Source: a virus (taxonomy: Duplodnaviria; Heunggongvirae; Uroviricota; Caudoviricetes). Taken from it: a stretch of 64,000 bases of DNA. Each line of letters begins with the position of its first letter. Position 1 is the first letter of the stretch. This document shows positions 4,186 through 22,865 of the stretch, piece by piece. A model generated the notes under the pieces. It was not told the DNA's origin. It worked only from the letters and a program-made list of their open reading frames with translations, and did no database searches. The position numbers and the translations under genes are program-made. Where the stretch lies: the IMG/VR virus record IMGVR_UViG_3300042691_036629, positions 53,500 through 117,499 of that record. One strand, 5' to 3'.

Positions 4186-4196
4186 TATATACAAAT

Positions 4197-4706: not shown

Positions 4707-4742
4707 TTTTTATTTGTATATTTACATAAATAAAAATTCACT

Positions 4743-5136: not shown

Positions 5137-6813
5137 ATGAAGTGGATAAAATCAAGAAAAAATTTCCTAAACGAAGCTAAGATTGGTGATGTTATCTTAC
5201 CATCTCAAAAGAAAGAAGTTATCAGAACTTTTGGTGAGAAGTGGTTAGACATGGAAGAAATTACAGCTACTGAGAAAATTATTCAAGGTGATTGGGAATT
5301 ATCTAAAGAAGATAAATTTAAAGTTCTAAACGTTCTTTTTGGATGTGACGTTGAAGAAGCTCAAAAACAATATGCTGATTTACCAGATGAGTTTATAGCT
5401 GCGGTTAATGAGTCTTTATCATTCTTAGAAACTGCTGATGATACAAGAGATGTTAATATCAAAAGAGCTAAAGAATCTTTGTCTGAATTAGATCTTAAAG
5501 ATATTGGTATTGATGAGATGATTGCTCTTAACTACCCAGTTTTAAGAAAGTTATCTAACGAAACTAACAAAGCTGAAATCATTCAAAGAGATGAAACAGG
5601 ACGTCCTGTTATGGGTGCCGATGGAAGACCAGTTAAAATTCAAGTTGAACCAGGTCCTGTATTTGAAAAAAACTTAATCAACTTAGAATCTTTCAGACAA
5701 GATTATAACAAATATTATGATAAAAAAGTTGAAGCTAACTTTAATGATAGAAATATTCAAGCTATTATAAACGTTGTTAAACAGGACCATAATAGTGAGT
5801 ACAAAACATCATATAAAGTATTTAATAGACCAGTTCATTTAAAAATATCACACAACCCAAAAGATATTTTAAATATGTCTATTTCAAAATTCTACGCATC
5901 TTGTCAACATTTATACTCAGGAGGTTATAGAAGTCAACTTATTGGAAACGTTTTTGATCCACATTCAATTCCAGCTTTCTTAATTGTTAAAACTCCTATT
6001 TATAATGGTGATGATTTACTTTCTGAGCAATTACCAATTGCTAGAAGTATGGTTAGATGGTTAGATGGATATGATAAGAATGAGAAAGGTGCTATCTTCT
6101 TTGATAGAACTTACCCTGATAGATTAAGAGAAGTTATGTATGAAATGCTAACTAAATATACTGGAATGGAACCTATCGGAACTCAAGCTAAATCAAATGG
6201 ATTGAAATATACTTTCTCTCCTGATATACCTGCTCAAGCACAAGGTGATATTAGAGATCCTTATATGGATTCATTAGGATTAAACAGAAAGAAATATGTT
6301 GGTATCAACACAACAAGATTAACTACATCAATGAGTGGATTTGATAAAATGATCATTTCTCCACAAGCTAAAGTTAAAGAGTTAATCGTTGATTCACCAT
6401 CTGTACCTGAAGCATTATTCTCATTACCATTGAAATTAGATTGGATTAAATTTAAGTTTATCAATATCAAAGAAATGCCAGATACAAGTAAGTTTGATTG
6501 TAAATCATTTGCTTTTGATAAATGTAAATTTTCTAGTGAAGATATTCAAAAAGTTATTGCTGATCACAAAGATATGAATAAATTACAATTAACATCTTGT
6601 GAAGTTGATGACTTAAAATTAAGTGGTTTAAATGTTGAAGAATTACAATTAGTTTATACTACAACTGATTCATTAGCTAGTGTTTTAGACGGAGCTACTT
6701 TCAAAAAATTAGTTGTTTCTGGTGATTTAATGTCAGATAAAGCAAATAAAGAATACATCAATAACTTAAAAAGAGGTGGTGTTAAAATTGAAACTGTTGG
6801 TTTAGTACTATGA
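5137..6813 (+). CDS. large hypothetical protein with MKxIKxxxxFxxE N-terminus and a divergent SCM-core domain
   Basis: 558 aa. N-terminus MKWIKSRKNFLNE. Internal ASCQH...PAFLIV...ARSMVRW...IFFDRTY...DPYMDSL aligns with the GTLGxSCM/GRALxW/FMDRVY/YPYLDTL paralogs. Confidence 0.55.
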   Translation: MKWIKSRKNFLNEAKIGDVILPSQKKEVIRTFGEKWLDMEEITATEKIIQGDWELSKEDKFKVLNVLFGCDVEEAQKQYADLPDEFIAAVNESLSFLETADDTRDVNIKRAKESLSELDLKDIGIDEMIALNYPVLRKLSNETNKAEIIQRDETGRPVMGADGRPVKIQVEPGPVFEKNLINLESFRQDYNKYYDKKVEANFNDRNIQAIINVVKQDHNSEYKTSYKVFNRPVHLKISHNPKDILNMSISKFYASCQHLYSGGYRSQLIGNVFDPHSIPAFLIVKTPIYNGDDLLSEQLPIARSMVRWLDGYDKNEKGAIFFDRTYPDRLREVMYEMLTKYTGMEPIGTQAKSNGLKYTFSPDIPAQAQGDIRDPYMDSLGLNRKKYVGINTTRLTTSMSGFDKMIISPQAKVKELIVDSPSVPEALFSLPLKLDWIKFKFINIKEMPDTSKFDCKSFAFDKCKFSSEDIQKVIADHKDMNKLQLTSCEVDDLKLSGLNVEELQLVYTTTDSLASVLDGATFKKLVVSGDLMSDKANKEYINNLKRGGVKIETVGLVL

Positions 6814-8717
6814 GAAATTTAAAACATATAAAATTATTTGAAAGTTTTTCTTTATTAGAAGCATTTGCTTCAACTAGTCTTAATAAAGTTTTTAACTATA
6901 TTAAAACAAAAGAGAGTAAAGAAAAGTTTTCTAACTATGTTAGAGCAATTGCGGGACAGATTGATGTCCCGTCAACTGCTATTACAGATGAATACTTTGA
7001 ATACCTACCGTATAAAGATGCTATTAGAAAGAATGTTTCTATGGATCTTGTTGATTGTAAAGCAACTTCTATTCAAGCTTTTGGAGATCCAACAAAAAGA
7101 GGTGGTAAAGGTGTACCAGGTGATGTTTGTACCAAGGGTAAATTAAAAAAGGCTTATGGTGCTTCAGGTAGAACAAGAGAGTATGATTGTCCTATTTGTA
7201 ATGGTACTGGTAAAGTAAGTCCTAGTGGTCAATTAAAATATCTTAAATTCTGGTTAAACTCAAAAGGTGATTTTATTGGTGTTACAGCTGTTGATGGTTT
7301 ATACCATGCTAATAAGAGAGATGTAAATCAATTTAAACAAATTGATATAACTGAAGAAGTTAAAGCTGTTTTAAATAGAGAAGGTAGAAATGATGCAACT
7401 GTTAAAGCGGATTTAGAAGCTATCGAATCTAAATATGGTTTAGAATCGGGTAAAACTAGATTAGCTACAGAAGGTTTAACAAATTATAGATGGAGAGATC
7501 CAAGTGGAATAACAATAGGAACTTATTGGAAAGACAGAGATGGTAAGGTTTATATAGCTTCTGGTAATAGTCGTTTAGATGATAAAAGACAAAGACCGGT
7601 TGGTGTTAAGTGGAAAGAGTTTGGAAGTTATTTAGCTCAATTACCTTATATTTTTAATGCTGTTACTGCGAATATTGATAGAGGAATTATAAAAATATTA
7701 ACTGATATTGAAGAAAAAGATGATGTTCTTTATAATGTTGGTGTAAACTTCACATATCCTAAAAGTGGTGGTGGAAGTTTCTCTTTGCAAGATAGTTTAG
7801 ATAAATCATTTTTAAGTGAGGCTGAGTTTGCTATTATATTTGATTTCAAGAAGTTTGAGGATGATATGATTGCTAATAATACAAAAAAACTTTCAACTAT
7901 CAAAGATGAAAGAACTGAAAGAAAAAAGGGTATTATTGGAGGTAAATTAGGTATCTCTGATAAAGATATTAGAAATGCTAATTTAGAAAGATATATAAAA
8001 GCTATTTCTGATGTTGATATAACAACTGGTTTTGATAGATTAGTTAAGAAACTACCTAGATTCTTTGGTGGTAGATTATCATTCTTTTATATTTATAGTG
8101 AGAAAAACTTTATTTCATATAGAAATACTATATTGAATTTATTACAATTCATGAGAGCTGAAGATGATGATGAGAAAAAAAATATTTCAGATAAAATATC
8201 TGATCGAATAAAAGAAACTTTTAATAACAATAAAATACACTCTGAGAGATTAGATAGAAGATTGGCATCATATAAAGATATTTTAGCTGATAGATCTGTT
8301 ACATCAGAAAATGATAATGAAAAAATTTTCTATAAATCTCAATTAGATATCTTAAATAAAATTATGCAGTTGAGTGCTAAAATATCTAATAAAATATCAC
8401 AACAGGAAGTTGAGTGTATTGAAGACTTTGAAATTATATACACTAAGATAAATGGTATATATAACGCACTCAAATCTGATAGAACGGGACTATTTAAGGG
8501 TAGTGGAGGACTTCAATATGTAGGTAGTGGAGGACTTCAATATGTAGATTATTTAATTGATTATGATGATGTAAATAGAACAATTAGGTCATTTGAATCT
8601 TATTATGGAAGACCAACACCTACACCGACTGATTTAGGTTCAACTAATTTTAATAGATATGTTGAAGATACTTTAAATAAGTTAGATTATATGATACGAT
8701 TAGTAGAAAGAATATAA
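6810..8717 (+). CDS. large hypothetical protein, MKxLKxFE N-terminal family, with Zn-ribbon-like CPICNGTGK
   Basis: 635 aa. Start MRNLKHIKLFESF overlaps the upstream stop (ATGA). Contains a 24-bp tandem duplication. Confidence 0.55.
   Translation: MRNLKHIKLFESFSLLEAFASTSLNKVFNYIKTKESKEKFSNYVRAIAGQIDVPSTAITDEYFEYLPYKDAIRKNVSMDLVDCKATSIQAFGDPTKRGGKGVPGDVCTKGKLKKAYGASGRTREYDCPICNGTGKVSPSGQLKYLKFWLNSKGDFIGVTAVDGLYHANKRDVNQFKQIDITEEVKAVLNREGRNDATVKADLEAIESKYGLESGKTRLATEGLTNYRWRDPSGITIGTYWKDRDGKVYIASGNSRLDDKRQRPVGVKWKEFGSYLAQLPYIFNAVTANIDRGIIKILTDIEEKDDVLYNVGVNFTYPKSGGGSFSLQDSLDKSFLSEAEFAIIFDFKKFEDDMIANNTKKLSTIKDERTERKKGIIGGKLGISDKDIRNANLERYIKAISDVDITTGFDRLVKKLPRFFGGRLSFFYIYSEKNFISYRNTILNLLQFMRAEDDDEKKNISDKISDRIKETFNNNKIHSERLDRRLASYKDILADRSVTSENDNEKIFYKSQLDILNKIMQLSAKISNKISQQEVECIEDFEIIYTKINGIYNALKSDRTGLFKGSGGLQYVGSGGLQYVDYLIDYDDVNRTIRSFESYYGRPTPTPTDLGSTNFNRYVEDTLNKLDYMIRLVERI
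8499..8546 (+). repeat. perfect 24-bp tandem duplication (GSGGLQYV x2) inside CDS
   Basis: GGTAGTGGAGGACTTCAATATGTA occurs twice in tandem. Confidence 0.8.
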
Positions 8718-8720
8718 TAA

Positions 8721-8750
8721 AAAAAACCACTCATTTGAGTGGTTTTTTTT
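8721..8750. terminator. bidirectional rho-independent terminator
   Basis: A-run, CCACTCA-TTT-GAGTGG, T8 run, between convergent genes. Confidence 0.7.
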
Positions 8751-8958
8751 ATTTCTCTTCAATTTTGATAGTCACTTCTACCTTAACATTCTTCTTATCA
8801 AACTCTCTTAACTTAGAATTGATAAAGTCCGAAACATCTTCTAACCTAACATGTCTAAGTGTATTCTCAGTTTCCTCCGAGATAACACTTTCAATTACAA
8901 AACTATCTTTAGTTTCATAAACACGTCCTTCAAAGGACTTTTCATTATATGTTTTCAT
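8749..8958 (-). CDS. hypothetical protein
   Basis: 69-aa ORF, acidic. Confidence 0.4.
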   Translation of the reverse strand: MKTYNEKSFEGRVYETKDSFVIESVISEETENTLRHVRLEDVSDFINSKLREFDKKNVKVEVTIKIEEK

Positions 8959-8960
8959 AA

Positions 8961-9539: not shown

Positions 9540-9581
9540 AAATATAGATTTTAGAGTATAAAGATAGTAATTTATTTTTAA

Positions 9582-10733
9582 TTATTTAAATCTTCTGATA
9601 AAATTTCTAACTCTTGGTGAATATCCAGTTGCAATTCCATAGTTACCACTTGCTGATTGTAATCCAAGACCATTTTTACCACTATAATTTAAGAGTTTAC
9701 CAGCTTTAACGTCATAAAAACTAAATGTATCAAGATAAGGGAAAGCACCATAATATATTTTCTTGACGTTGACTTCCATTTCAACATCATATTTATTACC
9801 TTTATACTCAATGTATTCCTGAGATCCTAATCCTTGATTTAATCTGGTTGCCATCCCATTTTCTTTTGCCCATTTAGTCATACTATATACCATCCAATCT
9901 TCAGTTGAATAAACTCGGTCTAAAAACTTTATCTTACCTTTCAAATCAGTTAAATTCTCTTTGATATCAAAGGCTAATCTAATTTCGGCATCCCAGATAA
10001 AAGCTCTTGCGACTAATTTATTAGAACTATCTAACATAACTAATAAACTACATACTTCTGGATTTTTTGTATAAATATCAAATAGATTATTAGTTCCTTT
10101 AAAACCATATGTGGTGGAAGATCCAAAACGTGTTATGTCTGTTCGATCTGATCTACCCTGTTGTTTATCATTCATACAAGAATTACCCAAAGTTCCCTTC
10201 ATTCGAGCATAGTTAAAAGAATCATAATATTTAGCTATTTCATTACCTTTAACAACTTTAAATTTATACTCTTCTTTAGCACCAGATTGTGATTGTAAAT
10301 AAACTACAAACTTATCAATTAAAGATTCTGGGTATTTTTTAGGAGTGTTTATAACTTTATTTAAAAATCTACCAATTTTAATTCTCGATCTTGTTTTAGA
10401 GTCCAATAAATCAGGTGATATCTCCCTCATTTTACTAGTTGGTATCCAAATTAAATTATCGCTTTTTAAACCATCGATAAACTCAGGGTATTCTTTATTA
10501 ACATTTTTCTGAGTTGTATATGAAAGATTTTTATCTTCTAGATCAACAAATGTTATATCATCATCAATTTCTTCACCATATAAGTCAAGTAAGTCTCTAC
10601 ATATATTAGAAAATTCAGATGGTGCTTTACTAATAGCTTTGTGAAAATTAGTTAGAAAGTAAAATCTGGTTTCATTTAAGAACTCCAATTCGTTTTGACT
10701 TTCAAAAACTTTAAAAGATTTTATATGTTTCAT
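9582..10733 (-). CDS. SCM-core paralog family protein with MKHIKSFKVFE N-terminus
   Basis: 383 aa. Contains GTLGNSCMND...LVARAFIW...FLDRVYS...FPYLDTF. TATATA-like box AATATATAGAAT sits just 5' of the ATG. Confidence 0.55.
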   Translation of the reverse strand: MKHIKSFKVFESQNELEFLNETRFYFLTNFHKAISKAPSEFSNICRDLLDLYGEEIDDDITFVDLEDKNLSYTTQKNVNKEYPEFIDGLKSDNLIWIPTSKMREISPDLLDSKTRSRIKIGRFLNKVINTPKKYPESLIDKFVVYLQSQSGAKEEYKFKVVKGNEIAKYYDSFNYARMKGTLGNSCMNDKQQGRSDRTDITRFGSSTTYGFKGTNNLFDIYTKNPEVCSLLVMLDSSNKLVARAFIWDAEIRLAFDIKENLTDLKGKIKFLDRVYSTEDWMVYSMTKWAKENGMATRLNQGLGSQEYIEYKGNKYDVEMEVNVKKIYYGAFPYLDTFSFYDVKAGKLLNYSGKNGLGLQSASGNYGIATGYSPRVRNFIRRFK

Positions 10734-10858
10734 ATTCTATATATTAAAGATTAAATCTCACTTTTTAATGACCAAAATAATTATTTTCAAAATAATTAAA
10801 TAAAATAACAAAGGGAGAGATAATTATTATATATATAATTAAAAATAAAAATAATTAT

Positions 10859-11437: not shown

Positions 11438-11456
11438 TTATTGAGAGTTTCTTTTT
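11424..11456. terminator. bidirectional terminator hairpin overlapping convergent gene ends
   Basis: CTCTCAATAATTATTGAGAG palindrome followed by a T-run. Confidence 0.55.
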
Positions 11457-11863: not shown

Positions 11864-11906
11864 TCTACAAAATTAAAAAATTTTTTTAATATTTTATATA
11901 TACATT

Positions 11907-12518
11907 ATGTTAAAAATTAAAACTTATAACCAATTTAATTCGAGTGATTGGTTTGGACCTGTTAAGGTTCTAGATATAAAAGATCGTAAAGTTTATACAA
12001 CTTCTGGAAATTTTGTAAATAATTCTATAAATCAAATAAAGAAAGGTTATACATATGTTTTTAGATTGAATGGTGATATGATAGTTGATACGGGTATGTC
12101 TTGTGTCGATTTAGTTATTTTAGTTGATACTGGCTCAAATTATAAGATGTTGGCAATTCTAAGAAATAAAGATCCATTTAAAGGCAAGTGGGCTTGTCCT
12201 GGTGGGAACATTGACGAAGGTGAAGAACCAATAGATGCTGCTATTCGTGAGTTGGAAGAAGAAACAAGTTTAAAAGTACCTAAAAGATATTTGAGATTTA
12301 TTGATGTATTCAATGAACCGTGGAGAGATCCAAGAAATAAGAATTGTATTTCTTATGCTTTCTCAGTTATTTTAAGTGATATACCTGAAACATCCGCGGC
12401 TGATGATGCTGATGAATGTGATTGGATTGATGTTAGTTATAGTGGTGAAACTATTGTTGATATGGCATTTGATCATAAATCTGTTATAAAAGGTGCTATT
12501 AAAAGAATTAAAAGATAA
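11907..12518 (+). CDS. Nudix hydrolase
   Basis: Nudix box GGNIDEGEEPIDAAIRELEEETSL (Gx5Ex7REuxEExGu). Confidence 0.8.
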   Translation: MLKIKTYNQFNSSDWFGPVKVLDIKDRKVYTTSGNFVNNSINQIKKGYTYVFRLNGDMIVDTGMSCVDLVILVDTGSNYKMLAILRNKDPFKGKWACPGGNIDEGEEPIDAAIRELEEETSLKVPKRYLRFIDVFNEPWRDPRNKNCISYAFSVILSDIPETSAADDADECDWIDVSYSGETIVDMAFDHKSVIKGAIKRIKR

Positions 12519-12536
12519 AGATTAAATATATAAGAA

Positions 12537-13658
12537 ATGAGAAAGTATAACCAATTTATTTTAGAAAAATTAAATAATGATTTAGTCATCTTATTAGAGG
12601 GGTATTTATATTCGACATCCGAATTTCATAGAAAGATTTCCGAATTATCTAGACAATCTGGTAGAGTGGGTGATATTTCTAAAATCATTGATGAATTCTT
12701 AAATAGAAAAGCAGATCCATTTCATCAATTAAAAGATGATTCAATAACTCAAAACTTTTTTGATACTACCAATCGAGTTGATATGGTTAGTTTCACTATG
12801 AATGATAAAGTTCCTAAAGATTGGGATAATGATGAAGATCCAGATTTGCCATACACATTAGGGAGATCTGAAATGAAAATTGGTAGAGTTTTGAGATCTA
12901 TTGTGTCTATGATACAAAGTTCAAAATCTATTAATTTTAATTTAACCGATAAAGATGTTGAAGACTTTGTGAACGCATATAAATCATTAGAAATAAATGA
13001 TAAATGGCAGTTTAAAATTGTTAAAGGTGATGATATTATCAAATATTATAACACATCTAATTACTTAAACACTAATGGGACTTTAGGAGGATCTTGTATG
13101 GGTGATGCTAGGGGTAAATTAAAACTATATGTGGAGAATGATAATAAAGTTGGTCTTTTAATTCTACACAATAAAGAAACTGATCAAATTTGTGGTCGAG
13201 CTTTAGTTTGGAAACTAAAAAAGTCACCTTGTGATGCTAAATATTTTATGGATAGAGTTTATGTAAATAATGATTCTGATGTTATAAAGTTTAAAAATTT
13301 TGCTAATGAGAATAAATTTTTATATAAACAGAAAATGAATAGTCATACGGAAACAAATGTTTGTTTTTTATATGATAATAAGGAATTTTTTGGCGAAATA
13401 TCTGTCAAATTAGAAAAATCAAACTTCAATAAATATCCATTCATTGATACACTTTGTTTCTTAAAAGGTAAAAAGTTATCAAACTTACCATCTAAGAATT
13501 GTAATTGGTTACATGAAACGGATGGTGGTGATGATCAATGTTATGAATGTGATGGTGAATGTTTCTCAAGTTACAATGGAATCTGTGATGTTTGTGGAGA
13601 TGGTCACATCTTTTTGAAAAGAAAAGGAATTGAAACTAAAATAAATAGATTAGTATGA
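12537..13658 (+). CDS. SCM-core paralog family protein with C-terminal Cys-rich Zn-ribbon
   Basis: 373 aa. Contains GTLGGSCMGD...VGLLILH...GRALVW...FMDRVYV...YPFIDTL, then CYECDGECF...CDVCGDGH. Confidence 0.55.
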   Translation: MRKYNQFILEKLNNDLVILLEGYLYSTSEFHRKISELSRQSGRVGDISKIIDEFLNRKADPFHQLKDDSITQNFFDTTNRVDMVSFTMNDKVPKDWDNDEDPDLPYTLGRSEMKIGRVLRSIVSMIQSSKSINFNLTDKDVEDFVNAYKSLEINDKWQFKIVKGDDIIKYYNTSNYLNTNGTLGGSCMGDARGKLKLYVENDNKVGLLILHNKETDQICGRALVWKLKKSPCDAKYFMDRVYVNNDSDVIKFKNFANENKFLYKQKMNSHTETNVCFLYDNKEFFGEISVKLEKSNFNKYPFIDTLCFLKGKKLSNLPSKNCNWLHETDGGDDQCYECDGECFSSYNGICDVCGDGHIFLKRKGIETKINRLV

Positions 13659-15676
13659 GATATATAAAAGAATTTTTCAATTACATAAAAGAAGAATGGT
13701 CAAAGAATGAACCAATTCCAGAAATATTAGATAAAGAAAAAGGATTAGCTGTTTTCCTAATCGGTGCTCCCGGTATTGGAAAGTGCTTAGAATATAATAC
13801 ACCCATTTTAGTGAATAATAAAATGACTAAAATTGGTAAATTGATAGATAACTATAACACCGAATCAAAAATTGGTGAAATAAATATTCCTGTTAAAAAC
13901 TTATATGTTAAATCATTAAATGATAGTGGTGAGTTTGTGGAAAATGAGATTTCGAGTTTATATAGAGGCTATTCAGAAAAGTTAATAAATATAAAAACAC
14001 AAACGGGTGTTGATATAAAAGTTACACCTATACACCCATTATTAGTTTTAGAAAAAAACGGTGATATTATTTGGAAAAAATCATCAGAAATAACAATAGA
14101 TGATAAGTTAGCCAGACCTAGAATAATAAATAACACTTTTAATAATAAATCAAAAATAAGTAATGAATTATCAAGGATTATTGGTTATTCGTTAAGTGAT
14201 GGTAATTTTATAAAAAATAAAAATAGTAAATTTCTAACACTAACAAATATAGATATTGATATAATAGATGATTTTAGAAAATGTGTCGAAAAAGAAAATA
14301 AAATATTAACAGTAAAATCTAAAAAAATAAGACATAGTGTTCAATATTCAGATGATATTAAATTAGGAAATCGAAGATTTAAAAAAGATAAATATGATTT
14401 TATTTCAAATATTTCTGAAATATGTGGTGATTATATTTTTGGCAACAAATCACATAAAGTTAGAATTCCGGATGATATAATATCAAACAGTGAATCATTA
14501 AAACATTTCTTAGGTAGTTATTTATCTTGTGATGGTTCTGTATTTGAAAATAGAGTTGAATATTACACATCGTCATATGAAATGGCTACTGATTTATCTT
14601 ATGCACTTTTAATGTTTAATTTATTATTATAAATTAATTCCACCATGTCATCATTTGGTATAAATCCACCAATATTTGTATTAGTTTTTTCAATTGGTTT
14701 AATTTTTTTTCTACTACATCTAATATATTTATTTAATATTTCTCCAAATAAATTAAAATCATCACTTGTTACCCTGACTATATATGATAAAAAATCCTTA
14801 TTATTTAAATTTGTTTTTTTATTTTTTATTACCGAATTTATACCAGAAGATGAAACTGGATATAGATTTACTAGAAGTTATAAATATAGAAGAGTAATAA
14901 CGAAAAAACGTTTTAATAAAATATGTAATTTTTTAAATGAGAATAATGTTTATATACCAGAAACATATATTAATCATCACAATAACTTATTTTTTGATAA
15001 AATAACTAATATATCAACAATAGAACATAATGATTATGTTTATGATATAGTCTTAGATAAACATCATAACTTCATAGGTGGTAACTTACCAACAATACTA
15101 CATAATTCACACTTTGTGAATAATTATTTACATACAAAAAATACAAACATTAAAGACTTCTCAACTGATGATATTTCACTTCTTTACACAAAAGATCCAA
15201 ATGTTTATTATAAAGGAAAAGAAAAAGAAGAAGGTGGTAGAACAAAAAATGCGTCTGAATTAAACTTAATGAAGATGAAAGGTTTTATGAAAACTGGTCA
15301 AAACTTTATCTATGATACAACCGGTGCTGGTAAAGAATATACTGATACTGGTTATGAACACATTAAGGATATATTTGATTTAGCAAGAGAGAATGGATAT
15401 GAAATAGTTTTTATTCACTTATTATCTACATTAGAAACATCAATTGAACAAGATAAATTAAGATCGAGACACGTTGATCCACACTATATTAAATGGGCTT
15501 ATGCCAAACAAATGGGTGGTGAAGTGGATGGTGTTAAGGTAACTGGTAATATGAAAAGATATAAGGAATTAGGACCAGATAAATATTATGTTATAACTTC
15601 TATTGATAAAAAATATAAGTTTTATAAATTAGAAGGAGATAAACTTCTTAAAAGAAAAAATGATAAATGGGTTTAA
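13655..15676 (+). pseudogene. P-loop NTPase gene carrying a LAGLIDADG intein, interrupted by in-frame TAA at 14630-14632
   Basis: N-extein ends LIGAPGIGK and C-extein begins SHFVNNYLH, so the spliced Walker A is GAPGIGKS. The two track ORFs (13655..14632 and 14645..15676) are in the same frame, separated by a single ochre codon. Confidence 0.5.
13784..15106 (+). mobile_element. intein (Hint plus LAGLIDADG endonuclease domain) in Walker A motif
   Basis: Starts CLEYNTPIL and ends VYDIVLDKHHNFIGGNLPTILHN before Ser. Two LAGLIDADG-like blocks: IIGYSLSDGNF and LGSYLSCDGSV. Confidence 0.7.
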
Positions 15677-15779: not shown

Positions 15780-16313
15780 TTATTTCTTTTTACATTTCAA
15801 AATCATTAACCACTTTCCGGATTCTAATTTAGGAAGTGCCTCTGGTGTACCAAACTCTTCAACGGATTGAGCAAATTTTAACATAACTAACTCACCTCTT
15901 TCTGGAGATGCTTTCTCTCTACCTTTTAAAGAGATAACAACTTTTACTTTATCACCGTCACTTAAAAACTCTCTACCTTTTTTAGATTTAGTTTCTAAAT
16001 CATGATCTGATATATTAACCGATAATTGTATTTCTTTTAAAGAGGATTTAACAGCATTTTTCTTTTTCTCTTTCTCAATCTTTTCTTGATTATAAAGAAA
16101 TTTGTTGTAGTCCTCAATTCTAACAATAGGTGGAGTTTGATTTTCATTAATCATAATCAAATCTTTTTCCTCTGCTTCAGCCATTCTAATAGCTTCATTT
16201 CTAGAAATAACGATTGGTTCTCCATTACCAATCAATCTAACATCACTTGATGTTATTTCTAAATTAATTTTGTGTTTTCTTTTTGGTTCTACTCTCTTAA
16301 AGGGTTTTCTCAT
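15780..16313 (-). CDS. infC: translation initiation factor IF-3
   Basis: 177 aa. VRLIGNGEPIVISRNEAIRMAEAEEKDLIMINENQTPPIVRIEDYNKFLY and the C-domain DHDLETKSKKGREFLSDGDKVKV align to IF3 throughout. Confidence 0.8.
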   Translation of the reverse strand: MRKPFKRVEPKRKHKINLEITSSDVRLIGNGEPIVISRNEAIRMAEAEEKDLIMINENQTPPIVRIEDYNKFLYNQEKIEKEKKKNAVKSSLKEIQLSVNISDHDLETKSKKGREFLSDGDKVKVVISLKGREKASPERGELVMLKFAQSVEEFGTPEALPKLESGKWLMILKCKKK

Positions 16314-16336
16314 TTATTTTTTATTTTTTATTTTTA

Positions 16337-17098
16337 TTACCACAAATCGAACTCTTTATTCTTCTTTTTATTTATGGTTTTTGATTCATCTATATATTCA
16401 AAATTTTCGATATCAAAAATAGCATCTATTTTAAAATCTCTATAATCAGCAACTCCATTCAACTCTTCCCAACCTCTATTTATCAGCTTCCATCTTCTAG
16501 AACTAATTCTTTTTTGATTATACATTTTAGCTAAGTTATTTACAAGAAACTTTCTATGTTTAGCATGTGAAATAGCACCTGGATAGTTTTGATATAAGTT
16601 TTTACCATCATAAGATATACCACAACAACTAATATCAACATTAGCAATCAAATCAATAAACGTTTGCGTGTATAAATCTTGAGTAACATCGGATGGTCTT
16701 TCAACAGACATAACTCTTGGTCTTATAAGTTGAACCACTTTAGTTCCTTTAACATAAGAATAGGGTTCAGATATAACCATATTCATATCATAAACAGATG
16801 ATAGATCTTTAGGTGCTAAATTTTCATGATAAATATATCCATTCTCAACTAATACTTTATCAACAAAATTCATTGATTTAGTACCAATTAATATATCCAC
16901 ATCATTGATTTTTTGACCGGCTATAATATCTCTTAAAGCTCCACCAAAAACTCTAACTAACTTATTATAAATTATTCCACGATCTTTTAATTCATTAGTG
17001 ATGAAAGTATCATCACCAAATAACAAAGATGAATCAAACTCTAAGTATTCGTCTAATTTTTGTTTAATCATTATATTCAAGTTTAAGTTTCTTATCAC
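16337..17098 (-). CDS. polymerase-beta-type nucleotidyltransferase (CCA-adding / poly(A) polymerase head-domain-like)
   Basis: FGGALRDIIAGQKINDVDILIG matches the GGxVRD...DxD head motif. At 253 aa it holds only the head/neck. Confidence 0.5.
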   Translation of the reverse strand: MIRNLNLNIMIKQKLDEYLEFDSSLLFGDDTFITNELKDRGIIYNKLVRVFGGALRDIIAGQKINDVDILIGTKSMNFVDKVLVENGYIYHENLAPKDLSSVYDMNMVISEPYSYVKGTKVVQLIRPRVMSVERPSDVTQDLYTQTFIDLIANVDISCCGISYDGKNLYQNYPGAISHAKHRKFLVNNLAKMYNQKRISSRRWKLINRGWEELNGVADYRDFKIDAIFDIENFEYIDESKTINKKKNKEFDLW

Positions 17099-18788
17099 CT
17101 ATTTGTAGTATGTAAAGACCTTTAGAAAGTTGTGGTAACTCTACATCAAAATAATTATCACCTAATTGTAAATCTAATGATTTTTTATAAAATTGTTTAC
17201 CGGTTAAATCATATATCAATAAGTCTTCAACCTTACTAAAAGATGAATGTAAAGAAACATTTATTTCATTTGTAATTGGATTTGGATAAACCGTTAAGTT
17301 CTCAATATTTAATTGAATTAATATAGACTCCCAATCTGTTCTTTTATAATCACCATTATAATCAGTTTGTTTTAATCGATAGTAAGTTATTCCAGTTTCA
17401 ATATTTCGATCAATTGCTTGATAGTTTATTCTTTGAGTTGAATTACCAGCACCTGGTAGAGTTGTAACTATATCATAATCTAAACCATCTTTTGACTTTT
17501 CAATTGTGAAATAATCATTATTGTGTTCTGATGCTGTTGACCATCTTAATTTAACAACACCATCTTCAAATTTAACTTTAAAGTAAATCAACTCAATTGG
17601 TAAAGCAATACCATTTGATTCATAACATCCAACATCTGGATTACCAATACGACTATAATGTCTCAAATCATCAGTTGGTGCTCCGGTTGTTGTTCCCCAA
17701 TCTATACAAGGTGATGTACCAGAAAGTGTATAATCATCACTAGCACTATTTGTGAATAGTGGATTTGATATTAACGGTGATGTATTTGATGTAGCTGATT
17801 TTATCTCAGCTGAATTTCCATAACAACAATTTGTCATGTTAACGGTAGCGGCATTATTATAAACATCATTGAAAGTATTACCTAAATTATTATAAATAAT
17901 TGTATTTATTAAATTTATTTTAGCTGATGATAAAGCCAAAACACCTCCAGTTCCAACAGAAGCATTACCATTAGCAGTTATAGTACAGTTCATAATATTT
18001 AATGTACTATATGTATTCATAGCAACAATAACAGCCTCTCCTGATGATGTATTATTTTCATAAAATAAACAGTTTTCTAATGTTAGAGTAGAGGTAGATC
18101 CAACACCAAAGAATATAGCACCTCCGTAATTAGTAGCGGTATTTGAATAAAAAATTGAATGTTTTATTGATGATGATGATGTTGGTGATAATTCTATTGA
18201 AATAGCACCACCATAATATTCAGCATTACAATTTTTGAAAGTACAATAATCGATGGTTATTCCCTCAGCAGAATAAATAACACCACCTCGGTGATGTAAA
18301 GAGGCAGTTCTTGTATCACAATTATCAAACTGACAATAAGTTGCTTTAAATCCTGTACATCCAGCAATTATTTTAATTGCTCCACCACCTCCTGGATCAC
18401 CTCCATCAGAATTTTTATGATCCTTTATAATTAATTTAGTGATTGTGATATTATCATTATTTGTGTTATTTAACAATAACCATCTTGCGGTACTACCTGC
18501 ATCAAAAATAGATGTAGGTACACCAGATGATAAAGCCGCACCAGAAATTACAAAACCTTCATCATCAGTACCAACAGTAATACCTGTCTCAGAATAAGTT
18601 CCTGCTTCAACGAAAATAGTATCATTAGAACCTAAATTATAGGTGCTGAAAACGTTTGCTAATGTTAATTTTGGTGTAATAGATGATGTTCCATTGTTTG
18701 TATTGTTTCCGGTTGAACTAATATAATAATTAGTTGCTAATGAACTAAATGATAATAATAGTGTTAGTAAAAATAATATTCTTTTCAT
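17064..18788 (-). CDS. secreted right-handed beta-helix repeat protein with T9SS (Por) C-terminal sorting domain
   Basis: Signal peptide MKRILFLLTLLLSFSSLA. Many NxxGGAI/TxxNN beta-helix repeats. C-terminus VYPNPITNEINV...IYDLTGKQ...LSKGLYILQIGDKKLKLEYND. Confidence 0.7.
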   Translation of the reverse strand: MKRILFLLTLLLSFSSLATNYYISSTGNNTNNGTSSITPKLTLANVFSTYNLGSNDTIFVEAGTYSETGITVGTDDEGFVISGAALSSGVPTSIFDAGSTARWLLLNNTNNDNITITKLIIKDHKNSDGGDPGGGGAIKIIAGCTGFKATYCQFDNCDTRTASLHHRGGVIYSAEGITIDYCTFKNCNAEYYGGAISIELSPTSSSSIKHSIFYSNTATNYGGAIFFGVGSTSTLTLENCLFYENNTSSGEAVIVAMNTYSTLNIMNCTITANGNASVGTGGVLALSSAKINLINTIIYNNLGNTFNDVYNNAATVNMTNCCYGNSAEIKSATSNTSPLISNPLFTNSASDDYTLSGTSPCIDWGTTTGAPTDDLRHYSRIGNPDVGCYESNGIALPIELIYFKVKFEDGVVKLRWSTASEHNNDYFTIEKSKDGLDYDIVTTLPGAGNSTQRINYQAIDRNIETGITYYRLKQTDYNGDYKRTDWESILIQLNIENLTVYPNPITNEINVSLHSSFSKVEDLLIYDLTGKQFYKKSLDLQLGDNYFDVELPQLSKGLYILQIGDKKLKLEYND

Positions 18789-18798
18789 GTTTCTTAAT

Positions 18799-19236: not shown

Positions 19237-19241
19237 AAAAA

Positions 19242-19679
19242 CTATTTAGTTTTAAACCAACCCAACACTTCAATTATTTTTTCTTTAATATTTTCACTAC
19301 TATCACTAGTTAAAGCATATGATAACATATCAATAACATCTGTTTCAGAATATAACTTTTTAACTGGTGAAACAACTACAACACCATTGTGTATTTTAAC
19401 TTTGTTATCACTATCATAGGAAACCTTAACTGATCTAATACTTGGACTTTTAATCCAAGTCCAAATAAAATCATATCCGATATTTGGGTATTCATCTTCT
19501 AAGTCAGAAGTAGCAACTACTTTATCAAAAATACGAAACTCTAATAAACAATTTTCACCACCTGGTATATTCTTACCTAAAATATCATAAGTATCATCAA
19601 ATCGTCTTATATTTGATAATTTTGATGTCTGAACAACATGAACAGAACATTCTATTTGTTTATCACCTATATTAATCAT
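19242..19679 (-). CDS. hypothetical protein
   Basis: 145-aa ORF. Confidence 0.4.
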   Translation of the reverse strand: MINIGDKQIECSVHVVQTSKLSNIRRFDDTYDILGKNIPGGENCLLEFRIFDKVVATSDLEDEYPNIGYDFIWTWIKSPSIRSVKVSYDSDNKVKIHNGVVVVSPVKKLYSETDVIDMLSYALTSDSSENIKEKIIEVLGWFKTK

Positions 19680-19834
19680 ATTACTGTAATAAAATTCTTA
19701 AATCGAACAAAAATTCTTTCAAATAATTATGAAATTTAACTTGTTTTCTATATCTTCTTTTCAACGGTTTAATTTCTCTACTTCTACACTTATTCATAAT
19801 TACTTTTTTTACAAAAATAAAAAAAAGTTTAATA

Positions 19835-20296
19835 TTATTTACATTTTTTTAAAATTTCTTTACAAGTTTCTAACCATTCAAAATGTTCAACATTTACCGG
19901 TTTACAAGGATCACCACTTCTAATAATAGCCCATAATTCATCCGGATCATCATCTAAATGAAAAATAAAGTTTTTACCTTCTAAAAACTCAATCTTATCA
20001 ACGTGTTCTGTAAATTGTATTCTTTCTCTTGGAATACCAACCAATTCAGCAACATCATATAACTCTTGATTTTGTTTTTCAACCCACCACCAACCCTTGG
20101 CTAAAGCTGGTTCAGTAGCACATCGACTTGTTACAATCCAAACTTCATAACCTTCATTTACTAGTTTGGTTGCGTATTCTTGTACATCTTTACGTGACAT
20201 AGTGCTATCAAAATCCATAGATATTTTATTTCTCTTCATATATAATATACTTTTTATTCTCATCATTACTGTATATAACTCGATAAACTTTAGCAT
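19835..20296 (-). CDS. HAD-superfamily 5'(3')-deoxyribonucleotidase-like protein (start probably at an internal Met)
   Basis: DFDST (DxDxT) motif near the N-terminus. An upstream TTTTTT run suggests the real start is near Met-20 or Met-27 (about 20239 or 20218). Confidence 0.45.
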   Translation of the reverse strand: MLKFIELYTVMMRIKSILYMKRNKISMDFDSTMSRKDVQEYATKLVNEGYEVWIVTSRCATEPALAKGWWWVEKQNQELYDVAELVGIPRERIQFTEHVDKIEFLEGKNFIFHLDDDPDELWAIIRSGDPCKPVNVEHFEWLETCKEILKKCK

Positions 20297-21059
20297 ATGT
20301 CATGTTAGTATTTTTAACTACATCCATTATACTATCATAGACAATATTACATTCAATATCTAAAACCTTAATACTATTAGTTGGTTTTTTTCTTTCTCTT
20401 TTTCTCCTTATTAGAATATCATCTATTTTAAGATCGGCATTTTTAAAAATCCATATAAAGTTAAATGCACTATTACTTTTATATCTAACATTACAGGAAA
20501 TGTTTTTCCTAGAAAATCCCAATTCCAATTCAATATCTTTAGCACTTTTCCATTCTTTGATAAAATTACCATCCAAATCATATTGCAATATTGGTTTTTT
20601 TATACTCTCTGCGTTATTTTTAATCCACTCTTCACTTTTATAAACCTTAGTCCCTCTTCTTTTTTCACTTGCTAAAATCTCTTTCTCCGTTCTTTTAGCC
20701 TTTTTCTTAGTTTCGGATATCATTTTTTTAGTTTTATCCGTATGTTTTAATCCACAAGATCCTTCACCACCAAGAGTTAAATTCATTCCAAATTTATAGT
20801 TGTATCTTCGAAAACTATTATATTCAATTATATACTTTGTCTCCAACTCAGATAAATATTCCTCACTACAAAAATCTTCAAATAGTATCTCAAAACTATG
20901 TTTATCCCAACCATATTTAACTAATGATTTATACAAAACTCTTTGTTTTTTACACCATAAACCTTTATAAGATCTTACTCTCTTTTCCAAATTAAAAGTT
21001 TTACCAATATAAATCCTGTTAGTTGGTGAAATTATTTTATAAATATATCCCTTTTCCAT
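20226..21059 (-). CDS. GIY-YIG homing endonuclease
   Basis: MEKGYIYKIISPTNRIYIGKT...R...E core, with a basic C-terminal DNA-binding region. Confidence 0.7.
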   Translation of the reverse strand: MEKGYIYKIISPTNRIYIGKTFNLEKRVRSYKGLWCKKQRVLYKSLVKYGWDKHSFEILFEDFCSEEYLSELETKYIIEYNSFRRYNYKFGMNLTLGGEGSCGLKHTDKTKKMISETKKKAKRTEKEILASEKRRGTKVYKSEEWIKNNAESIKKPILQYDLDGNFIKEWKSAKDIELELGFSRKNISCNVRYKSNSAFNFIWIFKNADLKIDDILIRRKRERKKPTNSIKVLDIECNIVYDSIMDVVKNTNMTYAKVYRVIYSNDENKKYIIYEEK

Positions 21060-21149
21060 AATAGTATATATTTATTATCAAAATCGAAAAGTTTCTTTTC
21101 ATAAAATGTGAAAAAATTTTTTTAAGTTAAACATTTTTATATATAAGTT

Positions 21150-22865
21150 ATGAGTAATATTTTAAGATATGATAGTTTCCTAAACGAGAGTAAACTCAAT
21201 TTACTACTTGAAGGTAATATGGTTTATAAAGATGATTTCAAAGAAATTTTGAAGTCGGTTAATAGTCCACTTTCAAAAGAGATTTTAGATTTAGAGGGTG
21301 TTGACGTTGATGTTGATACAAACTTTATTGATATTTCTGATGATAAAGACAACTTTATACAATTTAAATCCGATAAAAAGTCTAAAAACTCTTGTGTTAT
21401 AATTGATTTTGGCGCATCATTGTCTATCTTATCAAAAGAAATATTTACATCATTTGCTAAATTATTTGAAGATCCAAGAGTCGAAAAAGGTTTTTTGAAT
21501 TGGTATGAATTACTTCAAAGAAACCAAAAAGCTACTATTACTAAACAGATAACAAGTATTGATGATTTTAATGATGAGGATGTAAAAAATAGATTAAAAT
21601 GGTATCTTGATCAAGGACGTAAAATTTATCATATAAGATTTAATAGAAGTGGTGAGAATATTGATCTTATCATTGAAGATTATGGTCTTAAAATTGGTGA
21701 GGGAGCGGTTTCCTCACAAGAAGTTAGAGTTGGATCATTCGTTCAATCACTATTGAAGAAAGCTGGTAAAGAAGTTAAAGGAACTGAAGTTGAAGATTTT
21801 GTAACTAAGTTTTCAATTGCCACTAAAGCTAAAAAAGAAAATATATTCTCTGATTTTGAATTGGTTGAAGGTGATGATATTAAAAAGTTTTATTATGAAG
21901 GTAATTATTATCGAGGTGGTAATCATACTTTAGGAGCATCTTGTATGAGACATGCTAGATGTCAAGACTACTTAAACATATATTCTAAAAATCCTAAAAG
22001 TGTTGGATTAGTTATATTAAAATCTAAAGAAGATCCAACTAAAATTATAGGTAGAGCTCTTCTTTGGAAAAAACCAGAATATATGCCATGGGATGGTGGT
22101 GATGATGAAGGAGTAATAACGAAATATAATTTAGTAAAACATACCGAATCAGAAGGAAAACCATTTATGGATAGAATTTATGTGAGTAATTCACCAGACC
22201 AAGAATTGTTTATTAAATACGCAATTAAAATGGGATATGTTTATAAGAAAAATCAAAATATTTCAGAGGAAGAGTTTATGTTTAATGGTTCTGATTCAAA
22301 CATCGGAACAATTAAAGTTGATTTAGAAATGAACGGCTTTAGTAAATACCCTTATTTAGATACTCTTTGTTATTATGAATGGGATTATGGATTCTTAACA
22401 AATGAGCAAAAATTAGTAATAAATAGTAACTATTACGAACTAAGAGAAACTGATGGTGGTAATGGAGAAGAATGTGAAAGATGTGGTGGTGATGAAAGAA
22501 TTGATTGCTATGAATGTGAGGGTGATGGAAGATATGATTGTGAAGAATGTGGTGCCTCTGGTGAAGTAGAATGTTCTAATTGTGATGGACACGGTACTCT
22601 ACCTTGTGATAACTGCGAAGGAACTGGAAAAGAAGACTGTTCTAGTTGTGATGGAACTGGAGAAGATGATGAGGGAAATGAGTGTTCTTATTGTAGTGGA
22701 TCAGGTAAACAAGATTGTTCTGAATGTGAGGGTGACTGTACTAACGAATGTGATAGATGTGGTGGTGATGGTACCAGAGAGTGTGGTGATTGTGATGGTG
22801 AAGGTAGAATTTGGTGTAATCGATGTGATGGTGATGGTAGAATTGATTGTCCAGATTGTACATAA
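21150..22865 (+). CDS. SCM-core paralog family protein with C-terminal DnaJ-like CxxCxGxG zinc-finger array
   Basis: 571 aa. N-terminus MSNILRYDSFLNE. Contains HTLGASCMRH...VGLVILK...GRALLW...FMDRIYV...YPYLDTL, then about nine CxxCxGxG repeats. Confidence 0.55.
   Translation: MSNILRYDSFLNESKLNLLLEGNMVYKDDFKEILKSVNSPLSKEILDLEGVDVDVDTNFIDISDDKDNFIQFKSDKKSKNSCVIIDFGASLSILSKEIFTSFAKLFEDPRVEKGFLNWYELLQRNQKATITKQITSIDDFNDEDVKNRLKWYLDQGRKIYHIRFNRSGENIDLIIEDYGLKIGEGAVSSQEVRVGSFVQSLLKKAGKEVKGTEVEDFVTKFSIATKAKKENIFSDFELVEGDDIKKFYYEGNYYRGGNHTLGASCMRHARCQDYLNIYSKNPKSVGLVILKSKEDPTKIIGRALLWKKPEYMPWDGGDDEGVITKYNLVKHTESEGKPFMDRIYVSNSPDQELFIKYAIKMGYVYKKNQNISEEEFMFNGSDSNIGTIKVDLEMNGFSKYPYLDTLCYYEWDYGFLTNEQKLVINSNYYELRETDGGNGEECERCGGDERIDCYECEGDGRYDCEECGASGEVECSNCDGHGTLPCDNCEGTGKEDCSSCDGTGEDDEGNECSYCSGSGKQDCSECEGDCTNECDRCGGDGTRECGDCDGEGRIWCNRCDGDGRIDCPDCT
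22465..22860 (+). repeat. coding tandem array of about 9 Cys-rich CxxC(x)GxG units
   Basis: Repeated TGTGA(A/T)GGTGATGG...TGT units. The antisense ORF at 22701..22889 is an artefact of this repeat. Confidence 0.7.

What the first reader, a model, noticed from the sequence alone, without database searches (positions are those of the whole stretch)
5137..22865. Four-member paralog family with a conserved uncharacterised core (GTLGxSCM, VGLLIL, GRALxW, FMDRVY, YPYLDTL)
Genes 9582..10733(-), 12537..13658, 21150..22865 and, more divergently, 5137..6813 share a core of about 150 aa with five ordered motif blocks. The invariant Cys (in SCM), Arg (in RAL), Asp-Arg (in DRxY) and Asp-Thr (in LDT) suggest an enzymatic or metal-binding fold. 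I cannot assign it to a known family from sequence alone. All four also carry the N-terminal propeptide-like motif, and three have different C-terminal add-ons: none, a single Zn-ribbon, or a 9-repeat zinc-finger array. This is the diversification pattern typical of phage host-interaction or anti-defence effectors.
Basis: seen in the sequence. Interest (0 to 1): 0.8.

Follow-up and report, generated by a model that had tools for sequence, protein, structure and literature searches.

The report
Virus-only paralog family with GNAT-like core
Three genes, not four, are true paralogs of a very large, unnamed protein family found almost only in large phages of Bacteroidota-type hosts; its core is invariant and enzyme-like, its function is untested, and two copies start with a look-alike of the phage T4 capsid-targeting signal.

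Summary
Genes 9582-10733(-), 12537-13658(+) and 21150-22865(+) are real paralogs (BLASTP E 2e-30 to 7e-14). A 70-sequence core HMM finds exactly these three in six frames. The fourth gene, 5137-6813, belongs to its own large family with a C-terminal leucine-rich repeat. It shares only motif order and secondary-structure order with the others (P about 0.005-0.02), so homology is unproven.

The core family is huge: 4,868 clusters at 50% identity. It is nearly absent from 185,579 cellular species genomes and has no match in Pfam, NCBIfam, PHROGs or PDB sequences. Seven residues are invariant in all 216 unique domains: Y171, S186, C187, R221, W225, D239, Y242.

The C-terminal add-ons are DnaJ/BSD2-type CxxCxGxG zinc knuckles: none, 2 and 12 CxxC.

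Each paralog has closer orthologues in other phages, so the duplication is old.

12537 begins MRKYNQFILE, matching the T4 capsid-targeting sequence MKTYQEFIAE at all four functionally mapped positions.

Best guess: Cys-dependent effector enzymes, possibly capsid-delivered. Function is untested.

The parts
12537..13658 (+). Paralog B, 373 aa: N-terminal T4-CTS-like decapeptide, N-terminal domain, invariant core, and one C-terminal Zn knuckle
   Evidence: BLASTP paralogy. 380 close homologues. AlphaFold pLDDT 85.8, pTM 0.79.
12537..12566 (+). MRKYNQFILE: look-alike of the T4 capsid-targeting sequence MKTYQEFIAE (Y4, F7, I8, E10 identical)
   Evidence: Sequence. T4 CTS sequence from PMC8442874. 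Roles of positions 4/7 (targeting) and 8/10 (processing) from PMC9026906. Y4 nearly invariant and F7 invariant in 47 orthologues.
12981..13505 (+). Core domain of paralog B (aa 149-323) with SCM 13092-13100, GRALVW 13194-13211, FMDRVY 13245-13262, PFIDT 13437-13451
13539..13604 (+). Single CxxCxG...CxxCxGxG zinc knuckle of paralog B
   Evidence: CxxC at aa 335 and 350. C335, C338, C350 and C353 nearly invariant in orthologues.
21150..22865 (+). Paralog C, 571 aa: N-terminal Y-D-S-F-L-N-E motif (aa 7-13), core aa 224-428 (nt 21819-22433), SCM 21939-21947, GRALLW 22050-22067, FMDRIY 22164-22181, PYLDT 22350-22364
22473..22859 (+). Array of 12 CxxC units at an 11-aa period (DnaJ/BSD2-type CxxCxGxG knuckles)
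   Evidence: Regex count. BSD2_CRD matches 15 of 70 and DnaJ_CXXCXGXG 10 of 70 family members, best E 3e-10 and 9e-9. For this protein alone BSD2_CRD gives only E 0.092.
9582..10733 (-). Paralog A, 383 aa, no C-terminal add-on. Core aa 148-356 (nt 9666-10292) with a ~25-aa insertion after SCM. SCM 10173-10181, ARAFIW 9993-10010, FLDRVY 9909-9926, PYLDT 9726-9740
5137..6813 (+). Separate family, possibly a very remote relative. 558 aa. Mid-domain aa 228-392 (nt 5818-6312) with SCQ, ARSMVR, FFDRTY and PYMDS. C-terminal leucine-rich repeat aa ~410-558 (nt 6364-6810)
12527..12532 (+). TATATA promoter-like element 5 nt upstream of the ATG of paralog B. Equivalent elements at 21138-21143 (+) for paralog C and 10738-10743 (-) for paralog A
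   Evidence: The same TTAATATATA-type element precedes most family genes on IMG/VR contigs.

Best explanation
The three genes are ancient paralogs of a very large, virus-restricted protein family that has not been described before.

Each protein has four parts:
- a short N-terminal signal;
- a conserved N-terminal domain of about 130 aa;
- an alpha/beta core of about 175 aa whose strand/helix order resembles the GNAT acyltransferase fold;
- a variable C-terminal module, most often beads of DnaJ/BSD2-type zinc knuckles.

I read the core as an enzyme or small-ligand-binding pocket. It would be built around the invariant Ser-Cys on the helix pair after the first strand, Arg and Trp on strand 3, Asp-Arg-x-Tyr on strand 4, and Pro-x-x-Asp in a C-terminal loop. 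My best guess at the chemistry is a Cys-dependent transferase or hydrolase that acts on a host molecule. It is not a CoA-dependent acetyltransferase.

The variable tails would give each paralog its own partner or target.

In the large phages, the N-terminal Y-x-x-F-[IL]-x-E signal would target the proteins into the prohead, as the T4 capsid-targeting sequence does. The signal would then be cut after the Glu, and the proteins would enter the cell with the DNA.

What is shown: paralogy, family size, virus restriction, invariant residues, a confident model, weak GNAT-like fold similarity, the zinc-knuckle tails, and the signal resemblance and its enrichment.

What is inferred: catalysis, the target, capsid packaging and cleavage.
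For: - Paralogy.
- Family size: 4,868 clusters at E<=1e-3 and 1,615 at E<=1e-30.
- Virus restriction: only 4 small metagenome-bin contigs among 185,579 species genomes, against 149 loci on IMG/VR viral contigs, many of 170-198 kb and often several per contig. There are 6-16 copies in uncultured phage genomes of 635-735 kb and one copy in Cellulophaga podophages.
- Invariant residues: Y171, S186, C187, R221, W225, D239 and Y242 in 216 of 216 unique domains; M188, Y198, R240, P301 and D304 in 215 of 216.
- Model: pLDDT 85.8, with the core above 90.
- Tails: 92 of the 150 best cluster representatives carry 2 or more CxxC, with Pfam DnaJ_CXXCXGXG/BSD2_CRD hits.
- Old paralogy: orthologues at 50-68% identity against 25-33% between paralogs.
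- Signal: 12537 = MRKYNQFILE against T4 MKTYQEFIAE. The T4 positions 4 and 7 (targeting) and 8 and 10 (processing) are all identical. The motif [YFW]xx[FY][ILVMF]xE occurs in the first 18 aa of 67 of 147 representatives and 38 of 62 IMG/VR members, against 0.23% of internal windows. Synonymous differences between copies of the looser MKYLK motif argue for selection at the peptide level.
- Context: NAMPT-type NAPRTase, NUDIX, PARG, a Gad2-like gene and NADAR lie nearby in this phage and in relatives.
Against: - No catalytic activity is known for any member. Invariant Arg/Asp pairs and aromatics could be structural.
- Whether the invariant residues cluster in space could not be checked.
- No T4-type prohead protease, scaffold or capsid gene lies in the window or within 10 kb of either end. 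The ClpP at 1063-1815 is not in a head module.
- The Cellulophaga phi38:1 homologue (gp037) lacks the N-terminal signal. It is annotated hypothetical, not structural, and lies in the early/middle part of that genome.
- About half of the family members lack the strict signal.
- The same loose N-terminal motif also heads a NUDIX enzyme and an intein-bearing P-loop protein, so it may mean something other than packaging.
Confidence: 0.4

Rival explanations
1. The proteins are non-enzymatic internal head (inner-body or ejection) proteins. In this reading the paralogs act like the T4 internal proteins or the paralogous inner-body proteins of phiKZ/SPN3US-type giant phages. They would help condense or eject DNA, or bind and block host defence proteins stoichiometrically. 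The invariant residues would hold the fold or a binding surface together.
For: - The N-terminal signal resembles the T4 CTS.
- The family is multi-copy in large and huge phages.
- Bead-like zinc-knuckle tails could pass through a tail channel.
- T4 internal proteins are described as a diverse defence set sharing only the CTS (PMC3012670).
Against: A single Cys, two Arg, two Asp and four aromatic residues are conserved in 215-216 of 216 unique sequences (seven of them in all 216) down to about 25% overall identity. That is unusual for a purely structural or binding protein. There are no virion data. The phi38:1 homologue is not annotated as structural.
Confidence: 0.2
2. The core is a bona fide GNAT acyl-CoA N-acyltransferase that acetylates a host protein or small molecule.
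Against: - There is no Pfam acetyltransferase match, even at E<=1, for the window proteins or 70 relatives.
- The b4-a3 loop is D-R-V-Y-x-x-x-D-S-D, with no Gly-rich pyrophosphate loop.
- Helix a4 is absent.
Confidence: 0.08
3. 5137-6813 is a true, highly diverged fourth member, so that a 'superfamily' spans both families. In this reading its mid-domain has the same fold and pocket, fused to a leucine-rich repeat instead of zinc knuckles.
For:
- The predicted secondary-structure order around them is the same: b-a-a-b-b-b-a-b.
- hhalign aligns R, FxDRxY and PYMD with P 0.0045-0.013.
- It is the best non-member in the ordered-block test.
- It co-occurs in the same huge phages, LR745206, LR756502 and LR756504.
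Against: - Not detected by BLASTP or by HMMs.
- The statistics are marginal (z 2.3).
- The SC block does not align, because the spacing differs by about 12 aa.
- DR is not conserved within the 5137 family.
- A Foldseek search of the 5137 model against viral structures did not return core-family proteins.
- The region around SCQ is low-confidence in the model (pLDDT<50 at 250-262).
Confidence: 0.45
4. The shared N-terminal motif is not a capsid-targeting signal. It would instead be a degradation or recognition tag, for example for the phage-encoded ClpP with host ClpX. Alternatively it is a by-product of selection for efficient translation start on very short-leader mRNAs made from the TATATA element just upstream of the ATG.
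For: - ClpP is encoded at 1063-1815.
- TATATA lies 3-9 nt before the ATG of 19 ORFs.
- The motif also heads enzymes such as NUDIX and a P-loop protein.
Against: - Several TATATA-preceded genes lack the peptide motif.
- Codons differ synonymously between motif copies.
- The Y/F/[IL]/E spacing equals the experimentally mapped T4 CTS.
Confidence: 0.25

Closest known systems
GNAT (GCN5-related N-acetyltransferase) fold, SCOP acyl-CoA N-acyltransferase superfamily
Phage T4 internal proteins and other CTS-bearing head cargo (IPI, IPII, IPIII, Alt)
   Same: The N-terminal decapeptide matches M-[KR]-x-Y-x-x-F-I-x-E with the same four functionally mapped positions. The mature parts are diverse behind a shared signal. 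Each gene carries its own promoter-like element.
   Different: Packaging and cleavage are not shown. No T4-type head genes were seen in the sequence available. The mature proteins are large (370-570 aa) and share a conserved core, whereas T4 internal proteins are small and unrelated to each other. The hosts are Bacteroidota-type, not enterobacteria.
DnaJ central CxxCxGxG zinc-finger domain / BSD2 cysteine-rich domain
   Same: Repeated CxxCxGxG units in the C-terminal tails. Pfam DnaJ_CXXCXGXG and BSD2_CRD hit 10 and 15 of 70 relatives.
   Different: The arrays have up to 12 or more units at an 11-aa period instead of the two zinc centres of DnaJ. There is no J domain. The arrays are fused to an unrelated core.
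Paralogous inner-body / ejection protein families of giant phages (phiKZ, 201phi2-1, SPN3US)
   Same: Multi-copy paralog families in large phages. In those phages the propeptides are removed after Glu by a gp21-related protease (PMC9026906).
   Different: No sequence or fold relationship was found. The jumbo-phage hits in BFVD to the 5137 model have TM below 0.2. The cleavage motifs differ.
Cellulophaga phage phi38:1 gp037 (YP_008241418) and Calle_1 gp065
   Same: These are the only homologues in cultured phages, and they carry the full core with SCM, GRALVW, LDRIY and YPYMDT.
   Different: Single copy. No T4-like N-terminal signal. The tail is an acidic repeat (EDAVY-type) instead of zinc knuckles. 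The host phage is a 72-kb podophage.

Membership tests
Core paralog family (this finding) | Significant sequence/profile similarity over the core | tested here: met
   9582, 12537 and 21150: BLASTP E 7e-14 to 2e-30; core HMM E 1e-50 to 1e-61.
Core paralog family (this finding): membership of 5137-6813 | Significant sequence/profile similarity over the core | tested here: not met
   No BLASTP or HMM hit. hhalign P 0.0045-0.013. Ordered-block score 0.9 bits against 108-124 bits, z 2.3.
Core paralog family (this finding): membership of 5137-6813 | Same fold, with the conserved residues on equivalent elements | tested here: inconclusive
GNAT acyl-CoA N-acyltransferases | GNAT fold b1-a1-a2-b2-b3-b4-a3-b5-a4-b6-b7 | tested here: inconclusive
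GNAT acyl-CoA N-acyltransferases | Motif A pyrophosphate-binding loop Q/R-x-x-G-x-G/A between b4 and a3 | tested here: not met
   The sequence there is FMDRVYvnnDSDv. There is no Gly, and D246/S247/D248 are conserved.
GNAT acyl-CoA N-acyltransferases | Match to a Pfam Acetyltransf_* / NCBIfam GNAT model | tested here: not met
   No hit at E<=1 for the window proteins. No hit at E<=0.01 for 70 relatives.
T4-type capsid-targeted internal proteins | N-terminal ~10-aa CTS with Tyr4/Phe7 (targeting) and Ile8/Glu10 (processing) | tested here: met
   12537 is MRKYNQFILE, with all four positions identical. 21150 has the same Y-x-x-F-L-x-E shifted by 3 aa. 9582 matches partly (I4, F7, E11). 5137 has different spacing.
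T4-type capsid-targeted internal proteins | The phage encodes a gp21-type prohead protease and a gp22-type scaffold | not tested
   Only 64 kb plus 10 kb on each side of a 171,766-bp contig could be read, and no head genes lie there.
T4-type capsid-targeted internal proteins | Protein present in virions with the propeptide removed after Glu | not testable with these tools
   This needs virion proteomics. The only cultured relative (phi38:1 gp037) lacks the signal and is not annotated as structural.
DnaJ/BSD2-type zinc finger (C-terminal add-ons) | Repeated CxxCxGxG units | tested here: met
   12 CxxC at an 11-aa period in 21150 and 2 in 12537. Pfam hits in relatives reach 3e-10. For 21150 itself BSD2_CRD gives only E 0.092, below the cut-off.
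Leucine-rich repeat (C-terminus of 5137-6813) | LRR solenoid fold | tested here: met

The most novel reading that the evidence does not exclude
Large and huge phages of Bacteroidota-type hosts would use a T4-like capsid-targeting peptide to load their heads with an arsenal of enzymes from a previously unrecognised superfamily. These enzymes would have a GNAT-like fold, be independent of CoA and depend on a Cys. Each would be tethered to a different target-binding tail (zinc-knuckle beads, acidic repeats, nuclease, and possibly LRR). They would be injected with the DNA to modify host molecules, perhaps in NAD/ADP-ribose-based defence, before any phage gene is expressed.
Probability: 0.15. Interest if true: 0.8.

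Novelty: new variant of a known kind. Interest (0 to 1): 0.55.

Why it matters
The core is one of the larger protein families with no name in the libraries searched here. It has about 4,900 clusters at 50% identity, is confined to viruses, and is missing from Pfam, NCBIfam, PHROGs and the PDB. Its invariant Ser-Cys / Arg / Trp / Asp-Arg-x-Tyr / Pro-x-x-Asp pattern predicts a single conserved chemistry that is cheap to test by mutagenesis.

If the T4-like N-terminal signal works as in T4, capsid targeting of cargo would extend far beyond the T-even phages, to phages of up to about 800 kb. It would also offer a handle for loading foreign proteins into phages of Bacteroidota.

If the proteins are only structural or early accessory proteins, the finding is an ordinary, though very abundant, phage ORFan family.

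Tried and rejected
- Pfam, PHROGs and NCBIfam scans of the four proteins, phi38:1 gp037 and 70 relatives found nothing for the core.
- Profile searches of PDB sequences with both families found nothing meaningful.
- My initial hunch that this was a PcfJ-like domain got no support: there was no Pfam hit at E<=1.
- Megablast of 18 kb against 50,697 phage records gave no match.
- Foldseek against AFDB50 could not be run because the library was unavailable.
- Adding AlphaFold secondary structure to hhalign raised the score by only 2.3.
- Two genome-collection scans found 0 and then 4 hits, all on small metagenome-bin contigs. Alignment A4 was too diverse for pattern design.
- I looked for head-morphogenesis genes next to the window and found none.
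- I tried to time phi38:1 gp037 expression from the literature. The gene numbering differs from RefSeq and no supplement is held.
- A strict Nudix-box regex on flanks was too strict to be informative.
- One literature search (Mahaphage/paralog) returned nothing useful.
- Stop-codon recoding as an explanation for the split intein gene is unlikely. The in-frame stop is TAA, which is also the commonest stop in the window.
Full report
**What is there**

The window has 28% G+C. It comes from a 171,766-bp metagenomic contig.

All-against-all BLASTP of the window's ORFs links three of them:
- 12537-13658(+) with 21150-22865(+): 32.7% identity over 309 aa, E 2e-30.
- 12537-13658(+) with 9582-10733(-): 26% over 386 aa, E 6e-21.
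- 21150 with 9582: 24.7% over 255 aa, E 7e-14.

A core HMM built from 70 diverse relatives hits exactly these three in a six-frame translation (E 1e-50 to 1e-61). Nothing else scores at E<=1.

**The fourth gene**

5137-6813 is not detected by BLASTP, by a 3-sequence HMM or by the 70-sequence HMM. It has its own large family: 1,009 proteins among the scored candidates. Two tandem paralogs occur in an uncultured 636-kb phage.

Profile-profile comparison gives P=0.0045 and 0.013. It aligns only the Arg strand, FxDRxY and PYMD. The SC block does not align. Adding AlphaFold secondary structure changes little.

I also ran an ordered five-block test, with scoring matrices built only from non-window members. 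The three true paralogs score 124, 116 and 108 bits. 5137 scores 0.9 bits. That is the best of all other ORFs, but only z=2.3, and 45 of 2000 shuffles reach it.

Within its own family the 'DR' is replaced in some members: YFESAY and YFDMVY.

I therefore treat 5137 as a separate family that may be a very remote relative, at about 45%.

**The family at large**

A profile search of 1.84 billion cluster representatives finds 4,868 clusters at E<=1e-3 and 1,615 at E<=1e-30. Lengths run from 166 to 1,109 aa.

None of the listed relatives carries a precomputed Pfam domain. Direct scans against Pfam, NCBIfam and PHROGs, and profile searches of PDB sequences, find nothing for the core.

Two scans of one genome for each of 185,579 bacterial and archaeal species found only four hits. 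All four are on small contigs of metagenome bins, two of which are named Flavobacteriaceae and Chitinophagaceae. By contrast, IMG/VR holds 149 confirmed loci. Many are on contigs of 170-198 kb, and there are often several per contig.

Among deposited phage records the family occurs only in two groups:
- Uncultured phage genomes of 635-735 kb, with 6-16 places each. To my knowledge these are the huge phages of Al-Shayeb et al. 2020.
- Cellulophaga podophages, with one copy each.

A relative also sits on an 816-kb contig.

A Bacteroidota-type host is indicated by a type-IX-secretion C-terminal sorting domain in 17064-18788 and by the Cellulophaga phages.

**Conservation**

In 216 unique core domains, seven residues are invariant: Y171, S186, C187, R221, W225, D239 and Y242. 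Five more (M188, Y198, R240, P301, D304) are present in 215 of 216 (numbering of the 12537 protein).

Conservation also extends N-terminally (R110, G116, E142-x-F-V-N146). The conserved unit is therefore about 330 aa, not 150.

Each window paralog has closer orthologues elsewhere:
- 9582 with P0332: 56% identity, no tail.
- 12537 with P0002: 68% identity.
- 21150 with P0314: 50% identity, with the zinc array.

The duplication is therefore old and the subfamilies are stable.

**Fold**

The 12537 model is confident: pLDDT 85.8, pTM 0.79, and mostly above 90 in the core.

Two defining GNAT features fail:
- The Gly-rich pyrophosphate loop between b4 and a3 is replaced by an acidic D-S-D stretch.
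- Helix a4 is absent.

I call the core GNAT-like in topology but not a GNAT family member. By GNAT topology they would line the central cleft. That is an inference.

**Tails**

- 21150 has 12 CxxC units at an 11-aa period.
- 12537 has two.
- 9582 has none.

In relatives these tails match Pfam BSD2_CRD (15 of 70, best E 3e-10) and DnaJ_CXXCXGXG (10 of 70, best E 9e-9).

Of the 150 best cluster representatives, 75 have four or more CxxC in the tail and 17 have two or three. Ten have acidic EDAVW-type repeats, 34 have other long tails and 14 have short tails. Two proteins contain two whole copies of the module.

**N-terminus**

12537 starts MRKYNQFILE. The T4 capsid-targeting sequence is MKTYQEFIAE (PMC8442874). 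In T4, residues 4 and 7 carry targeting and residues 8 and 10 carry processing by the prohead protease (PMC9026906). All four positions are identical in 12537. In its 47-sequence orthologue alignment Y4 is nearly invariant and F7 is invariant.

21150 has the same Y-x-x-F-L-x-E shifted by three residues.

The motif [YFW]xx[FY][ILVMF]xE lies in the first 18 residues as follows:
- 67 of 147 representatives;
- 38 of 62 IMG/VR members;
- 0.23% of internal windows;
- 0 of 69 members of the 5137 family.

The family consensus is M-I-K-K-Y-N-D-F-I-L-E-S.

A looser MK[YWH][IL]Kx[FY] motif heads at least 14 ORFs in the window, mostly on the + strand. These include a NUDIX enzyme and an intein-bearing P-loop protein. 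Its codons differ synonymously between copies.

This supports a peptide signal, and capsid targeting is the best-precedented reading. Several points count against it:
- No head genes are visible in the sequence I could read.
- The cultured homologue phi38:1 gp037 lacks the signal, is annotated hypothetical, and lies in the early/middle part of its genome.
- About half of the members lack the strict motif.

**Context**

The paralogs sit in an accessory region containing:
- ClpP and a formyltransferase;
- an M50 peptidase;
- NUDIX;
- IF3;
- a Gad2-like/PolyA-polymerase-like gene;
- a NAMPT-type NAPRTase and a phosphoribosyltransferase;
- a microbial-type PARG;
- a HAD RNA-repair domain;
- homing endonucleases.

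Orthologues of 12537 in a 185-kb and an 816-kb contig again lie near NUDIX, and there also near NAMPT, IF3 or NADAR. They are again on the strand opposite to their neighbours. This fits an accessory or counter-defence role, but it is only association.

**Verdict**

My best explanation, at about 0.4, is a virus-only, enzyme-like domain with a GNAT-like fold and a Cys-centred pocket. It would be specialised by variable tails and, in large phages, possibly loaded into the capsid through a T4-like signal.

The function remains untested. The decisive experiments are virion proteomics and mutagenesis of C187, R221 and D239.

Noticed in passing
window 4197, 5137, 6810, 10733(-), 11907, 12537, 13655, 21150, 22881, 33663, 40496, 56484, 62834, 63130 (start codons): At least 14 otherwise unrelated ORFs begin with MK[YWH][IL]Kx[FY]xxF-type peptides. 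They include a NUDIX hydrolase and an intein-bearing P-loop protein. Nearly all lie on the + strand among minus-strand genes. Codons differ synonymously between copies, which points to a peptide-level signal.
   Followed up: partly
window, e.g. 12527-12532, 21138-21143, 10738-10743(-), and 16 further sites: A (T)TAATATATA / TATATA element lies 3-9 nt upstream of the ATG of 19 ORFs. It also lies upstream of most family genes on IMG/VR contigs. It looks like a phage promoter that gives very short leaders, and it also precedes genes without the N-terminal motif.
   Followed up: partly
window 13655-14632 and 14645-15676 (+): A P-loop protein (GAPGIGK|C) carries an intein with a LAGLIDADG domain. 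The two ORFs are in the same frame and are separated by a single TAA inside the endonuclease region. The same split is seen on contigs from other samples.
   Followed up: partly
window 23351-24931(-), 11907-12518(+), 26850-27623(-), 40924-41640(-), 16337-17098(-): A set of NAD/ADP-ribose-related accessory genes: a NAMPT-type NAPRTase, NUDIX, a phosphoribosyltransferase, a microbial-type PARG and a Gad2-like/PolyA-polymerase-head protein. This looks like an NAD-salvage and counter-defence set.
   Followed up: no
window 15780-16313(-), 1063-1815(-), 518-1063(-), 47960-48029(-): The phage encodes translation initiation factor IF3, a ClpP protease, a formyltransferase and a tRNA-Leu(UAA). IF3 is also next to the 12537 orthologue on an 816-kb contig.
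   Followed up: no
window 17064-18788(-): A 574-aa protein with a signal-peptide-like N-terminus and a type-IX-secretion C-terminal sorting domain (Por_Secre_tail, E 1.5e-9). This points to a Bacteroidota host.
   Followed up: no
window 42571-42870(-) and 42867-43166(-): Tandem duplicate small ORFs: 99 aa each, 56% identical, E 1e-29.
   Followed up: no
L095 (NCBI JAVQHZ010071667.1) 584-5927: In a variant contig the 5137 homologue is truncated to 363 aa. It is followed by an SMC_N/AAA_23 protein and a PLD-ResIII-helicase protein that are not present at this place in the window. This indicates population-level variation at the locus.
   Followed up: no
P0278, P0282, P0307 (relatives): Some relatives contain two complete copies of the whole module in one polypeptide (910 and 980 aa). 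P0307 (1,109 aa) ends in what looks by eye like a PD-(D/E)xK nuclease motif.
   Followed up: no
window 44043-44768(-): A tyrosine recombinase (Phage_integrase, E 9e-35) lies inside a large, apparently lytic-type phage genome.
   Followed up: no
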